Shown in pieces: positions 8,532 to 23,351 of a stretch of 64,000 nt of DNA. Source of the stretch: Mizuhopecten yessoensis (lineage: Eukaryota); contig NW_018407853.1 in the NCBI RefSeq assembly GCF_002113885.1, positions 1,207,113 through 1,271,112 on the forward strand, read 5' to 3'. Below the pieces are notes generated by a model. It saw only the letters and a program-made list of their open reading frames with translations, did no database searches and had not been told where the DNA came from. Positions within the stretch are counted from its first letter, which is position 1; each line of letters starts with the position of its first letter. A program made the position numbers and the translations under genes.

Positions 8532-9740
8532 TCACATGTAGATATCTTCTTGCGTGAGGGGAATTTCCTCATATAACGGCCGAGAGTGGCGCTTAAATAG
8601 ACTGGGATAAACTCTCTCAACTACAATTGAAAGTGTATACAAGATAGCAACACTTGAAACTAGTATAAGAATATCTATCAAGGCCTTCTCCCCAAACGTC
8701 AGTTCATTAGAAGGTCCCGTCTTCGCTTTCTCTCGATCCTTTCCCATTACACCGGAAGTACACCAAGGTTCAAAAGCCCGGATGCCAGAGAGTTTGGTAG
8801 GACGTCTCATCCATTCAACAATTTGTTTAATATCAACGATATAAACACCATCGTTATTCAATATGTCCACAATAAACCTCTCCAAAGGTTCTTTATGTAG
8901 GCTAAGGAAATCAGTGGAATGGATGTTAATTCCAAACGGAGATCTATTGCCGTAGTAGTGACTTTTGAAATTGTCCATCAAATATTTGAAAATTTCGTTA
9001 GAATTCGATAATTTCTCCTGGCAACTATCAGCGTAGGTACACGGTTCCCCGTCAAGTATCATAGAGTTTACAGGAATCTCCCAAAAGCCATGATATTGAT
9101 CGTTGGGGCACCGAGAGGCACAGGTTGATTTGTAGGGCCACCCATAATCTAATGTAAACGGCCAGGCATTACTATCATTTATAGAACTTTTCGTATATGT
9201 CATAGAACTGTCGTAGCGGTACCTTGATTTTTGCAAAGCGAGGAACTGCATATCCCCCATCGCCATTAAAGAAGGGCTCCTCCAGCCTGCTATATCTCCT
9301 AGAGGTATTCCAACGTGTTCAGACAGCATGTTTTTATGTTCTATGACATCGTTCATGATGTTAAACCCCACATCGTATATATTATTTTCGGTGTCTGACA
9401 CGGCTAAGTCTAACCCGTGTTTGTAGTACTTTTTTGATATATCATGATCGGTGTTATTGTGTGTGATAAACAATGTGGCACTGATTGGACAGCCGTTCGG
9501 GTTGGTATGGCCTCGCATGAATAACAAATCGTAGGTTTCAGCAGAAAATGAATTCAAAACACCGTCAAATCCAAAATACACCATCTGTGGAATTTCGCTC
9601 CGGTTCATCGGATGTTTGAATGTACTGCAAAAGCAATCCGGAAGATGGCAGTTGATACATTGTTGACAGGTCTGTGCTTTCACTAGAGTAACTGTCAAAA
9701 CACTAGCACAAACTATGGAATATACCAACGTAAACCCCAT
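8532..9740 (-). CDS. Membrane-anchored chitin deacetylase-like protein (CE4), predicted catalytically inactive, copy A
   Basis: 402-aa single-exon ORF with signal peptide, CHLPDCFCS, PQMVYFGFDG, NPNGCPISATLF, GWRSP, WPFTLDYG, FWEIPVN, GNRSPFGINIH and VYIVDIKQIVEWMRRP (animal CDA-like pattern). TM segment at ~aa353-374; tail contains YEEI and DIYM. Motif 1 DD>DG and motif 2 HSxxH>SDxxN. Confidence 0.92.
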   Translation of the reverse strand: MGFTLVYSIVCASVLTVTLVKAQTCQQCINCHLPDCFCSTFKHPMNRSEIPQMVYFGFDGVLNSFSAETYDLLFMRGHTNPNGCPISATLFITHNNTDHDISKKYYKHGLDLAVSDTENNIYDVGFNIMNDVIEHKNMLSEHVGIPLGDIAGWRSPSLMAMGDMQFLALQKSRYRYDSSMTYTKSSINDSNAWPFTLDYGWPYKSTCASRCPNDQYHGFWEIPVNSMILDGEPCTYADSCQEKLSNSNEIFKYLMDNFKSHYYGNRSPFGINIHSTDFLSLHKEPLERFIVDILNNDGVYIVDIKQIVEWMRRPTKLSGIRAFEPWCTSGVMGKDREKAKTGPSNELTFGEKALIDILILVSSVAILYTLSIVVERVYPSLFKRHSRPLYEEIPLTQEDIYM

Positions 9741-9926
9741 GGTTAGTTCTGTTCCAGATATTTCATGGTGTAGAGTCAGCCTGTATACACTTTTATGATG
9801 GTAAGTAACAACGTGGAGACATCAAACAGCACATTGATTAGATAAAGTAGATTAAAGTCAAGTCCAGACGAACTATTCTCTGTGCGTGTCCTAACACATC
9901 TGGCGTAGTAGGTACATTTATATAGT

Positions 9927-10090
9927 ATTGCTATTTATAGTGTGCGATTCTTTACACTAGCCACACAGCAAGCCATACTCATTATACAAAAGGCTAATGA
10001 CAACCAGTAATACCAGTGTGATATGAAATAGGCCGTTTATTCACAAAACGACATAAAGTACAAACATGTATACACTACATTGCTATTTAT
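9927..10090. mobile_element. ~150-bp insertion flanked by 12-bp direct repeats (TSD-like)
   Basis: ATTGCTATTTAT occurs at 9927-9938 and 10079-10090. The paralogous site upstream of copy B (~23538-23549) has a single ATTGTTATGTAT and no insert. Confidence 0.65.
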
Positions 10091-10251
10091 TTGAGAATAT
10101 GCCTTAGGGAGTCATGAAATACAAGTCAGTGATCCCTTAAATATATTTCAGCGAATAAGGTAACATTGCCATTTTCCAAAACCATATATATATATTTTTA
10201 TTTGTAATGTTTTTTCCCCATTAAAAGTCATATAACATCAATATCAGTCAT

Positions 10252-20134: not shown

Positions 20135-21254
20135 TAAACAAGTAATTGCCTAGCTATTTGGTCTACCGATCCTTTCCAAATACATGCAAAGGATATTTTA
20201 TTTAACTCTTTTATATGAGACTTGCTAGAAAACTAAATATATTTTGATAACATGAGACACATCAAGATTACATTGTATATCAATCTTACGAAAAATGGAG
20301 CGGAAAACATCATCTTTTAATATACATGTAGTTCATAAATCGACTATTCAAACGTAAAGTGTAGTTTAAAAAATTGCTAAGAAGATTGAGTAGCAGTTTA
20401 TTAGTATCTGATTTATTCGAGGGTAGAATTATTTAGTGACTTATAAACGCAACCACATGGAGATATAAAAGGTGGAATTTCAATTAATGATCAATTAATA
20501 TTACTGTCTCCCAATGTTTGGATTACTCAGTTTAGGTTTACCAGTACTTAATTCAAATAATTAAGGGGTTCTATGCACCTCCTTTCCTGTTTCAACAATT
20601 CAAAGACCAGTTTGGATTTTCACCTTTTTGGCCCCTAGCATCATCCATGAGTCCTAGAAGGACAAAACAGCTGTATAGTGCCAAGTAATTTTTTTGTTGC
20701 CCTACTGCATTAATTACTAAAGTATTAAGGTGCAATCACCGGTGTATTCATCATCATCAATATCATACATGAACATTGTACTTCATTCCCAAATATCTAA
20801 CGGTTCTGTTCTACCTTCATATGGAGCTCATTGTAAAATTGGTAAATAATTTAACTTAGCACCTTCAAGAAGACTATGCTAACAGAACAATTGATACACT
20901 CGGAGACGGAAAAAACGCTGACTTCAATAGATTTATTGGTATAAACAAATATGGGTTATTTCGGTGAGTGTATTGATAAAGAACTGTATTCAGGGGATTC
21001 AATTTAAAAGTGCCTGACCTGAAGCACTATTTCCTTTGTATGGTGTATACGACTACAAACCAATATTACAAGAAATCTTTAGACGACTAATAAATTCTGA
21101 GATCACTTAAAGTAATAATTGAATGCAGATGATTGACTTATGCCAGTAGCTATTTTCTATATGTAGTAATTACTTAGAGATAAGGTTAGGTAAGGTTCCA
21201 CATGACAGATCTTAACAACAAGCATGAAGTTCCCTGGCTAATAAGGACAGAGCT

Positions 21255-21790
21255 GCCTTATTGCAATGTCGCGCTCAATTGGCGACATTCTAAATTGGCT
21301 TATTGTAATGTCACGCTCCATTGACGACATTTGAAATTGCCAAATTGTAATGTCACGCTCAAGTGGCGACATCTTGCATTGCCTTATAGTCATGTCACGC
21401 TTAATTGGCGATATTTTACATTGCCTTATTGTATTGGCATGCTCAATTGGCGACGTTATTAGTTGCTTTATAGTAATGTCACGCTTAACTGGCGACATTT
21501 GACATTGCCTACCTGTAATGTCACGCTCAATTGGCGACATTTTACATTGCCTTATAGTAATGTCACGCTTAATTGGCGACATTTGACATTGCCTTATTGT
21601 AATGTCACGCTCAATTGGCGACATCTTACATTGCCTTATTGTATTGTCACGCTCAAGTGGCGACAGTTTACAGTGCCTAATTGTAATGTCACGCTCAAGT
21701 GACGATATTTTCCTTACCATATTATATTGTCATGCTCGATTGGCGACGTTCTAAGTTTCCTTCTTGCCATGTTACCCTTGCTCGACAATA
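21255..21790. repeat. 42-bp minisatellite, ~12 copies, downstream of CDA copy B
   Basis: Consensus ATTTTACATTGCCTTATTGTAATGTCACGCTCAATTGGCGAC. It generates the 14-aa repeat ORF 21238-21720. Confidence 0.9.
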
Positions 21791-22142
21791 TTTTTTACAC
21801 TGCCTCATAATTATAACTTTAACCCCAGCTCTATTTGTCTTTGCATTTCTAGTGGGTAACAGCGATTTTACATCGTTTTCTCTCTATCAAGCACATCATA
21901 AAGTTTAACACGCATTGGCCGGCATTTCAATAAAAAGTAACAAAAAATAAACCAAGAGTGACATGTTTTATTTATTCTATATAAGATCGATTAACATTCA
22001 TCTTCACGGTTCGATAACTTTAAACGGCAATGGTTTAAAATTTAAAAATAAAATGGAACTAAATCGTGGAACATGTATATATATCATGGTAGTAAAAAAT
22101 CATTAAGTCAGTACATTTTGAGCGTTACTAATACATTTACAA

Positions 22143-23351
22143 TCACGTGTAGATATCTTCTTGCGTGAGGGGAATTTCCTCATTTAATTGCCGAGAGCGG
22201 CGCTTAAATAGACTGGGTTGAAATTTCTCAATTACAATTGAAAGTGTATACAAAATACCAACACTTGAAACTAGTATCAGAATATCTAGCAAGGTCTTCT
22301 CCCCAAACGTCAGTTCATTAGAAGGTCCCGTCTTCGCTTTCTCTCGATCTTTTCCCATTACACCGGAAGTACACCAAGGTTCAAAAGCCCGGATGCCAGA
22401 GAGTTTGGTAGGACGTCTCATCCATTCAACAACTTGTTTAATATCAACGATATAAACATCATCGTTATCCAATATGTCCACAATAAACCTCTCCAAAGGT
22501 TCTTTGTGTAGGCTAAGGAAATCAGTGGAATGGATATTAATTCCAAACGGAGATCTATTGCCGTAGTAGTGACTTTTGAAATTGTCCATCAAATAATTAA
22601 AAGTTTCGTTAGAATTCGTTAATTTCTCCTGGCAACTATCAGCATAGGTACACGGTTCCCCGTCAAGTATCATAGAGTTTACAGGAATCTCCCAAAAGTC
22701 GTGATATTGATCTGTGGGGCACCGAGAGGCACAGGTTGATTTGTAGGGCCACCCATAATCTAATGTAAACGGCCAGGCATTACTATCATTTATAGAACTT
22801 TTCGTATATGTCATAGAACTGTCGTAGCGGTACCTTGATTTTTGCAAAGCGAGGAACTGCATATCCCCCATCGCCATTAAAGAAGGGCTCCTCCAGCCTG
22901 CTATATCTCCTAGAGGTATTCCAACGTGTTCAGACAGCATGTTTTTATGTTTTATGATATCGTTCATGATGCTGAACCCCACATCGTATATATTATTTGC
23001 GGTGTCTGACACGGCTAACTCTAACCCGTGTTTGTAGTACTTTTTTGATATATCATGATCGGTGTTATTGTGTGTGATAAACAATGTGGCACTGATTGGA
23101 CAATCGTTCGGGTTGGTATGGCCTCGCATGAATAAAAAATCGTAGGTTTCAGCAGAAAATGAATTCAAAACACCGTCAAATCCAAAATACACCATCTGTG
23201 GAATTTCGCTCCGGTTCATCGGATGTTTGAATGTACTGCAAAAGCAAGCAGGAAGATGACAGTTGATACATTGTTGACAGGTCTGTGCTTTCACTAGAGT
23301 AACTGTCAAAACACTAGCACAAACTATGTAATGTACCAACGTAAACCCCAT
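22143..23351 (-). CDS. Membrane-anchored chitin deacetylase-like protein (CE4), predicted catalytically inactive, copy B
   Basis: 402-aa single-exon ORF collinear with copy A (29 aa differences by my count). FGFDG and AVSDTAN replace FDD and HSxxH. Signal peptide + TM + tail NEEI..DIYT. Confidence 0.92.
   Translation of the reverse strand: MGFTLVHYIVCASVLTVTLVKAQTCQQCINCHLPACFCSTFKHPMNRSEIPQMVYFGFDGVLNSFSAETYDFLFMRGHTNPNDCPISATLFITHNNTDHDISKKYYKHGLELAVSDTANNIYDVGFSIMNDIIKHKNMLSEHVGIPLGDIAGWRSPSLMAMGDMQFLALQKSRYRYDSSMTYTKSSINDSNAWPFTLDYGWPYKSTCASRCPTDQYHDFWEIPVNSMILDGEPCTYADSCQEKLTNSNETFNYLMDNFKSHYYGNRSPFGINIHSTDFLSLHKEPLERFIVDILDNDDVYIVDIKQVVEWMRRPTKLSGIRAFEPWCTSGVMGKDREKAKTGPSNELTFGEKTLLDILILVSSVGILYTLSIVIEKFQPSLFKRRSRQLNEEIPLTQEDIYT

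What the first reader, a model, noticed from the sequence alone, without database searches (positions are those of the whole stretch)
8532..22290. Receptor-like Tyr motifs in the cytosolic tails, with YEEI present in copy A but lost in copy B
Seen: the copy A tail is YPSLFKRHSRPLYEEIPLTQEDIYM (YEEI at 8562-8573). The copy B tail is QPSLFKRRSRQLNEEIPLTQEDIYT, so two tail tyrosines are lost. Known: pYEEI is the classic Src-family SH2 ligand, and YxxPhi is also an AP-2 endocytosis signal. Inference: near-identical ectodomains coupled to signalling-competent and signalling-reduced tails resemble paired receptor/decoy logic.
Basis: partly seen in the sequence, partly recalled or inferred. Interest (0 to 1): 0.7.

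Follow-up and report, generated by a model that had tools for sequence, protein, structure and literature searches.

The report
Scallop dead deacetylase twin lost tyrosines
Two neighbouring scallop genes encode a membrane-anchored chitin-deacetylase-like protein that has lost its metal-binding residues; one copy keeps a conserved tail tyrosine that likely serves as a trafficking signal, and its younger twin has lost it, probably by decay rather than as a decoy receptor.

Summary
Copy A (9740-8532, minus) has YEEI at 8573-8562; copy B (23351-22143) has NEEI and also Y378Q. Both are 402-aa single-pass proteins related to insect chitin deacetylases. A, B and their four closest relatives lack all three zinc ligands, so they are predicted pseudoenzymes.

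They are paralogues, not alleles: both tails occur in 3 of 3 DNA-like runs. The distal tyrosine is kept in 3 of 3 named scallop orthologues (YEAI, YEEI, YEAI), so B is the derived copy.

YEEI itself is not special. A YxxPhi motif occurs in 21 of 22 long-tailed relatives (7.0 expected by shuffling), including those with an intact active site; only B lacks one. That fits a sorting signal best.

A and B differ by 2.5% over ectodomain and 5' leader but 9.6% over membrane segment and tail. Both points keep a receptor/decoy reading alive (about 0.17). Against it, B's tail diverged at the flank rate, four RNA-like runs show only A (found with an A query), and the cluster holds broken copies.

The parts
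8532..9740 (-). Copy A coding sequence, single exon, 402 aa: signal peptide, pseudo-chitin-deacetylase ectodomain, membrane segment, 28-aa tail
   Evidence: A-type contig 8400-9799 without a joint in run X9
9675..9740 (-). Copy A predicted signal peptide (residues 1-22)
   Evidence: hydropathy; boundary judged by eye against paralogues
9561..9569 (-). Motif 1 reads FDG: catalytic-base Asp59 kept, zinc-ligand Asp replaced by Gly60
9384..9398 (-). Motif 2 reads SDTEN in place of HSxxH: both zinc-ligand histidines lost
8619..8684 (-). Copy A predicted transmembrane segment (353-374)
8598..8609 (-). Y378-PSL, membrane-proximal YxxL; first half of the ITAM-consensus match
   Evidence: Tyr kept in 2 of 3 named orthologues
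8562..8573 (-). Y390-EEI, conserved distal YxxI (consensus of A and three orthologues: hydrophobic-Y-E-x-I-P-L)
22143..23351 (-). Copy B coding sequence, intact 402 aa, same pseudoenzyme substitutions, tail without any YxxPhi
22209..22220 (-). B: QPSL, first tyrosine lost (two base changes)
22173..22184 (-). B: NEEI, second tyrosine lost
8691..9892 (.). Stretch of A only 2.5% different from B (30 of 1202 bases); candidate gene-conversion zone over ectodomain and 5' leader
   Evidence: boundary chosen after seeing the data
19918..20134 (+). Inverted fragment of the A/B ectodomain (96% identical over 200 bases), truncated
26134..27300 (+). Paralogue C, 388 aa, zinc triad intact, membrane segment and tail with YALL
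2439..3359 (-). Paralogue D, broken in this assembly by stops and frame changes

Best explanation
Copy A is a single-pass scallop membrane protein whose chitin-deacetylase-like ectodomain lacks all three zinc ligands (predicted inactive) and whose conserved tail tyrosine likely works as a YxxPhi sorting signal, while copy B is a tandem duplicate that lost both tail motifs, probably under relaxed selection. Shown: fold family, loss of the ligands across the clade, family-wide YxxPhi, paralogy, and that B's tail changes are derived. Inferred: the dead ectodomain binds chitin or GlcNAc glycans, or partners an active paralogue; the unphosphorylated YExI motif binds an adaptor mu subunit, and its acidic positions suggest AP-3-type endosomal or lysosomal routing as well as AP-2 uptake; gene conversion and selection kept the two ectodomains alike while membrane segment, tail and 3' UTR drifted; B, if made, would stay longer at the surface.
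For: Best solved relatives are two insect deacetylases, 5z34 and 5zns (E 7e-38 and 1e-37 by sequence; top Foldseek hits). Their zinc triad is Asp-His-His (PMC6463723 passages). A, B, P0002, P0003, P0004 and P0096 have Gly-Ser-Asn/Arg there (6 of 6), while 45 of 58 single-domain relatives keep the triad. YxxPhi is in 21 of 22 relatives with a tail of 18 or more residues, against 7.0 expected from shuffles; B is the only exception. Those proteins form one clade (SH-aLRT 95, quick tree, 21 of the 22 included), so the motif predates the loss of catalysis and persists where little else in the tail is conserved. mu3A prefers acidic residues within the signal (PMC2133128 passage). B's tail has 6 derived changes against A's 1, and tail divergence (9 of 84 bases) matches 3' UTR divergence (24 of 276; p 0.67). 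Runs X9, X4, X13 and X18 give only A-type contigs. The cluster also holds a broken paralogue and an inverted fragment.
Against: A and Pecten P0002 match the strict ITAM consensus (shuffle P 0.004 and 0.002 per tail). The clade's motif has shifted from the family's YxxL type to hydrophobic-Y-E-x-I, which is SH2-ligand-like. B's 7 tail base changes are borderline above neutral expectation (Poisson p 0.03-0.08). B's frame is intact and its tail is present in 3 of 3 DNA-like runs. Run X17 holds B-type contigs, one ending within a few bases of where A-type contigs end in three other runs, so B may be transcribed. The runs were found with an A query, and contigs drop rare forms. No trafficking or binding was measured.
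Confidence: 0.48

Rival explanations
1. Receptor/decoy pair. A is a glycan-sensing receptor with an ITAM-like tail (E-x-x-YPSL-x8-YEEI) that is phosphorylated by a Src-family kinase and recruits a Syk-family kinase. B binds the same ligand without signalling and damps A.
For: A matches the consensus D/ExxYxxL/I-x(6-12)-YxxL/I quoted for oyster CgIgR, which recruits CgSyk (PMC6994640 passages). Strict match in A and Pecten, relaxed in Argopecten. B lost exactly these two tyrosines. Divergence is 2.5% over ectodomain and leader against 9.6% over membrane segment and tail (p 7e-5, boundary post hoc), although the membrane segment is more conserved than the ectodomain across orthologues. Homogenisation confined to ligand-binding parts is described for paired leukocyte receptors (PMC3210942 abstract). 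Loss of catalysis with the rest of the pocket kept fits a lectin-like role.
Against: Ylistrum P0003 and the sister P0096 lack the ITAM match. Y378 lies only 4 residues from the predicted membrane segment. A relaxed two-motif pattern also appears in 4 intact-site paralogues (7 of 22 in all). The three named orthologous species each returned one such protein, so the pair looks recent and species-specific. B carries no ITIM-like or other opposing signal. RNA-like contigs are A-only in 4 runs.
Confidence: 0.17
2. A signals through phosphorylated Y390 (single SH2 site or hemi-ITAM), but B is only a decaying duplicate with no decoy role.
For: Hydrophobic-Y-E-x-I-P-L is kept in A and 3 of 3 named orthologues, tighter than a sorting signal needs. 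pYEEI binds Src SH2 with high affinity (PMC2888578 passages). B's tail drifts at about the flank rate.
Against: The motif sits where the family-wide YxxPhi sits, in proteins with intact enzyme sites. 2 of 3 orthologues read YEAI. The sister pseudoenzyme P0096 has YFRI instead. Residues upstream are basic, which I recall as unfavourable for Src substrates.
Confidence: 0.17
3. The motif is a sorting signal, and B's loss of it was selected: B is a surface-retained version of the same binding protein (division of labour by location).
For: B is the only one of 22 long-tailed relatives without YxxPhi; 6 of 7 tail changes are on B's side; its frame is intact and ectodomain dN/dS is about 0.38; B-type contigs in X17.
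Against: The 6:1 skew is not significant against the rest of the protein (p 0.08). Low ectodomain dN could come from conversion by A. No run shows B alone.
Confidence: 0.13
4. A and B are alleles or an assembly duplication, with a neutral Y/N polymorphism.
For: The assembly is fragmented (82,659 contigs) and the ectodomains are 95% identical.
Against: Both lie in tandem with no N between them (only N at 36795). Flanks differ by 9-11% with large indels. X12, X15 and X16 each hold one tail contig identical to A and one with the 14 B differences. The genome has exactly two matches to the tail region.
Confidence: 0.03

Closest known systems
Insect CE4 chitin deacetylases BmCDA1 and BmCDA8 (5zns, 5z34)
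   Same: Best sequence and fold matches; catalytic-base Asp, motif-3 Arg and motif-5 His kept.
   Different: All three zinc ligands replaced; C-terminal membrane segment and tyrosine tail present; the match to the solved chains covers only the ectodomain.
YxxPhi sorting signals of CD63 / LAMP-2a type (AP-2, AP-3 mu subunits)
   Same: Short tail, tyrosine with hydrophobic +3 residue and acidic neighbours (PMC2133128); motif kept across the clade.
   Different: No Gly before the Tyr, 16 residues from the membrane and not at the C-terminus, unlike what I recall for LAMP-type signals; binding untested.
ITAM receptors, e.g. oyster CgIgR with CgSyk
   Same: A and Pecten P0002 match the quoted consensus; same phylum.
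   Different: Ectodomain is a deacetylase fold, not Ig; first Tyr is next to the membrane and lost in one orthologue; no phosphorylation data.
Paired leukocyte receptors with homogenised ligand domains (KLRC, PIR; Siglec-11/16)
   Same: Tandem genes with near-identical ectodomains and more divergent membrane and tail parts (PMC3210942 abstract).
   Different: No opposing signal in B, only loss; pair seen in one species; co-expression and shared ligand not shown.
Chitinase-like lectins (inactive GH18) and the CE4 pseudoenzyme BA3943
   Same: Carbohydrate-enzyme fold without key catalytic residues (GH18 case recalled; BA3943 named a CE4 pseudoenzyme in a PDB title).
   Different: Those are not scallop single-pass proteins with tyrosine tails; glycan binding by A is untested.

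Membership tests
CE4 / insect-type chitin deacetylase fold | Sequence and fold homology to the NodB-type barrel | tested here: met
   phmmer E 7e-38 to 5z34; Foldseek E 7e-19 to 5zns with a modest model, pLDDT 65. Pfam PF01522 did not hit A or B at E 0.1.
Active CE4 deacetylase | Asp-His-His zinc triad | tested here: not met
   Gly60, Ser115, Asn119 in A and B; lost in 6 of 6 clade members.
Active CE4 deacetylase | Catalytic-base Asp, motif-3 Arg, motif-5 His | tested here: met
   D59, R154, H274 in 6 of 6.
Active CE4 deacetylase | Deacetylase activity | not testable with these tools
   Needs an enzyme assay.
YxxPhi sorting signal | Tyr-x-x-bulky hydrophobic in a cytosolic tail, conserved | tested here: met
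   A and 20 other relatives of 22; B not.
YxxPhi sorting signal | Binds an AP mu subunit and directs uptake or sorting | not testable with these tools
   No assay; no complex prediction was run.
Src-family SH2 ligand pYEEI | YEEI sequence conserved in orthologues | tested here: inconclusive
   Y-E-x-I in 3 of 3, exact YEEI in 1 of 3 named orthologues.
Src-family SH2 ligand pYEEI | Tyrosine phosphorylated and bound by SH2 | not testable with these tools
   No phosphoproteomic data seen.
ITAM | D/ExxYxxL/I-x(6-12)-YxxL/I in the tail | tested here: met
   A matches with 8-residue spacing; 2 of 22 tails match strictly.
ITAM | Both tyrosines conserved in orthologues | tested here: inconclusive
   Both kept in Pecten and Argopecten (Val at first +3); first lost in Ylistrum; absent in P0096.
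ITAM | Recruits Syk/Shark tandem SH2 | not testable with these tools
   Pathway shown in oyster; I did not search G000 for the kinase.
Paired receptors / decoy | Separate loci with near-identical ectodomains and divergent tails | tested here: met
Paired receptors / decoy | Opposing (inhibitory) signal in the partner | tested here: not met
   B has no YxxPhi at all, so no ITIM; it could at most be a silent decoy.
Paired receptors / decoy | Co-expression of both copies | tested here: inconclusive
   4 RNA-like runs A-only; X17 has both but may be DNA.
Paired receptors / decoy | Shared ligand | not testable with these tools
   No ligand known.
GPI-anchored CDA | Hydrophobic C-terminus without a charged tail | tested here: not met
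   28 charged residues follow the hydrophobic segment; several distant relatives do end that way.

The most novel reading that the evidence does not exclude
Scallops have turned a chitin-deacetylase fold into a glycan-sensing receptor: the metal site is gone, the tail carries an ITAM that recruits a Syk-family kinase, and a recent tandem twin, kept alike in the ectodomain by gene conversion but stripped of both ITAM tyrosines, acts as a decoy.
Probability: 0.15. Interest if true: 0.8.

Novelty: new variant of a known kind. Interest (0 to 1): 0.4.

Why it matters
Even on the plain reading, this is a scallop clade of membrane-anchored chitin-deacetylase-like proteins with tyrosine tails, including a conserved pseudoenzyme branch; my nine paper searches (listings only) showed no description of it. 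A and B form a natural pair for testing what the tail does. If the ITAM reading holds, it would be a CE4-derived signalling receptor in an animal and a candidate chitin or glycan sensor in molluscs. If not, it is an ordinary young duplicate losing a sorting signal.

Tried and rejected
Pfam gave no hit for A or B at E 0.1; family assignment rests. A search for short fragments carrying the tail found none among 96 candidates. The profile search of 1.84 billion representatives listed no further full-length clade member than P0096 among the best 150; of its 120 new proteins, 13 had a C-terminal hydrophobic segment, 1 had a long tail, and that one had no YxxPhi. ESM Atlas gave only arthropod deacetylase clusters below 0.9, a lead only. 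No RNA holder is on record for the stretch: no RNA holder listed. Parts of B without cover in X17 and X18 were not used as evidence. Ectodomain dS (0.056) is not significantly below 3' UTR divergence (p 0.28), so gene conversion is suggested, not shown. B-type letters in collapsed DNA contigs were not read as conversion. An acidic dileucine signal was considered and rejected: EEIPLT lacks the second Leu/Ile. An ITIM was rejected: position -2 is Pro or His. The careful tree did not finish; the quick tree was used. Three look-ups in earlier findings returned nothing. No complex prediction was run, because no partner sequence was in hand and a pass would not separate the readings.
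Full report
Observation. The finding is exact. Copy A runs 9740 to 8532 and copy B 23351 to 22143, both on the minus strand, both 402 aa, with 29 amino-acid differences. YEEI is at 8573-8562. B reads NEEI there and QPSL in place of YPSL, and keeps the third tyrosine Y401. A hydrophobic segment at 353-374 is followed by 28 charged residues, which gives a predicted type I topology and not a GPI end.

What the proteins are. The closest named proteins are from Pecten maximus, Ylistrum balloti and Argopecten irradians at 73, 71 and 67% identity. Paralogues found in the genome match proteins named from Mizuhopecten yessoensis, so I take the window to be from that scallop. 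The best solved relatives are silk-moth chitin deacetylases 5z34 and 5zns. In those enzymes zinc is held by the second Asp of TFDD and the two His of HSxxH (PMC6463723, passages read). A, B, the three orthologues and the more distant unnamed P0096 have lost all three ligands, while keeping the catalytic-base Asp, motif-3 Arg and motif-5 His; 45 of 58 single-domain relatives keep the triad. These six form one branch (SH-aLRT 98, quick tree). They are predicted pseudoenzymes; activity was not measured.

Paralogues, not alleles. No N lies between the copies, and their flanks differ by 9-11% with large indels. I laid 8 of the 21 listed runs. Each of the three DNA-like runs X12, X15 and X16 holds two contigs over 8543-8714, one identical to A and one with 14 differences, the number that separates A from B there. 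The genome has two matches to the tail region. Each orthologous species returned one protein of this branch, so the duplication looks recent.

Which copy changed. Against three named orthologues, the tail has 6 B-derived changes and 1 A-derived; the ectodomain has 5 B-derived, 7 A-derived and 4 unclear. The distal tyrosine is kept in 3 of 3 orthologues (YEAI, YEEI, YEAI), the proximal one in 2 of 3. So the loss is B's, and the conserved core is hydrophobic-Y-E-x-I-P-L rather than YEEI.

What the tyrosine most likely does. Of 130 proteins fetched by then, 36 had a C-terminal hydrophobic segment; I dropped 14 with tails under 18 residues. Of the remaining 22, 21 carry YxxPhi against 7.0 expected from shuffles, and B is the only one without. 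They form one clade (SH-aLRT 95; P0017 was left out of the tree by length), so these are not 22 independent cases but a few orthologous groups whose tails share little else. Most have intact active sites. A motif of this kind that is older than the loss of catalysis reads best as a sorting signal. Acidic residues within the signal are preferred by mu3A and occur in CD63 and LAMP-2a (PMC2133128, passages read). Binding to an adaptor is inferred, not shown.

The case for signalling. A's two tyrosines with the preceding Glu match the ITAM consensus quoted for oyster CgIgR, which recruits CgSyk (PMC6994640, passages read). The strict pattern is met by 2 of 22 tails, A and Pecten (shuffle P 0.004 and 0.002). 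A relaxed pattern is met by 7 of 22, four of them intact-site paralogues, so two-motif patterns arise easily near the membrane. Ylistrum and P0096 lack it, and Y378 is only 4 residues from the membrane segment. pYEEI is a high-affinity Src SH2 ligand (PMC2888578, passages read), but 2 of 3 orthologues have Ala at +2.

Pattern of divergence. A and B differ at 30 of 1202 bases over ectodomain and 5' leader, 15 of 156 over membrane segment and tail, and 24 of 276 in the 3' UTR (the boundary at 8690 was chosen after seeing the data). The leader stretch 9741-9860 has 1 difference in 120. Across orthologues the membrane segment is more conserved than the ectodomain, yet between A and B it is four times more divergent in dN. 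This suggests conversion of the ectodomain, as described for paired receptors (PMC3210942, abstract and outline only). It is not proof: ectodomain dS is not significantly below the UTR rate (p 0.28). Tail divergence equals the UTR rate (p 0.67). B's 7 tail base changes are borderline against a neutral expectation of 2.9-3.6 (p 0.03-0.08), and hitting at least 2 of 3 tyrosines has probability 0.11. Relaxed selection is enough to explain B; selection for loss is not excluded.

Expression. No run is on record as RNA, and contigs cannot give level or ends with certainty. X9 holds one A-type contig over 8400-9799 with a loose end that I recall as a cDNA template-switch adaptor. X4 and X13 give near full-length A-type contigs (63, and 29 plus 31, differences from B; A itself differs by 63, and 29 plus 30), and X18 gives two A-type pieces. 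X17 holds both types at depth 2.6-4.5. One B-type contig there ends at 23407, within a few bases of the equivalent ends in X9, X13 and X18, which hints at a B transcript; but X17 also covers upstream DNA at 23698-23900 and may be genomic. All runs were found with an A query. So A is probably transcribed, and B is open.

Context. The window also holds paralogue C with an intact triad and a YALL tail, a broken paralogue D, and an inverted fragment of A/B. The genome search gave 22 matches to the family. Birth and death of copies is visible here.

Verdict. Most likely (0.48): a conserved membrane-anchored pseudo-deacetylase with a tyrosine sorting signal, and a young twin that lost it by drift. 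Signalling readings together take about 0.34, half of that with B as decoy. Selected surface retention of B takes 0.13, an allele or assembly artefact 0.03. Nine paper searches (listings seen) showed no description of this clade; subscription journals and supplements were not seen. Interest 0.4.

Noticed in passing
window 9766-9743 (-) and 23377-23354 (-): A 7-codon upstream ORF ends two bases before the main ATG in both copies, downstream of the apparent 5' ends near 9794-9799; it may tune translation.
   Followed up: partly
window 26134-27300 (+): Paralogue C keeps FDD, but its orthologues P0007, P0009 and P0011 read FDG while keeping both histidines; partial loss of the metal site in a second branch.
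   Followed up: partly
window 2439-3359 (-): Broken paralogue D with stops and frame changes; a similar gene lies split by a gap at L015/L021.
   Followed up: partly
window 19918-20134 (+): Inverted 217-base piece of the A/B ectodomain, 96% identical, inside the roughly 10 kb that separates A from its far-upstream homology block 20382-20842.
   Followed up: partly
window 8535-8543 (-) and 22146-22154 (-): A ends in I-Y-M, as do Pecten and Argopecten; all non-B clade members end in a hydrophobic residue, B ends in T. A possible PDZ-type end (consensus recalled) would be a third loss in B.
   Followed up: no
window 8619-8684 (-): The membrane segment with an Asp near its outer end (DILIL) is kept in all six clade members, better than the ectodomain; it may mediate pairing in the membrane.
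   Followed up: no
L007, L012, L013 (G000 C3547, C82415, C1152): Two-domain deacetylases whose second domain has also lost motif-1 and motif-2 ligands; this layout is common among the molluscan hits.
   Followed up: no
L010 (G000 C4568): Another pseudoenzyme-like paralogue (P0098) with a short tail, on a separate branch with P0040 and P0046.
   Followed up: no
window 10250-14500 and 39200-42500: Long tandem repeat arrays that give spurious repeat ORFs.
   Followed up: no
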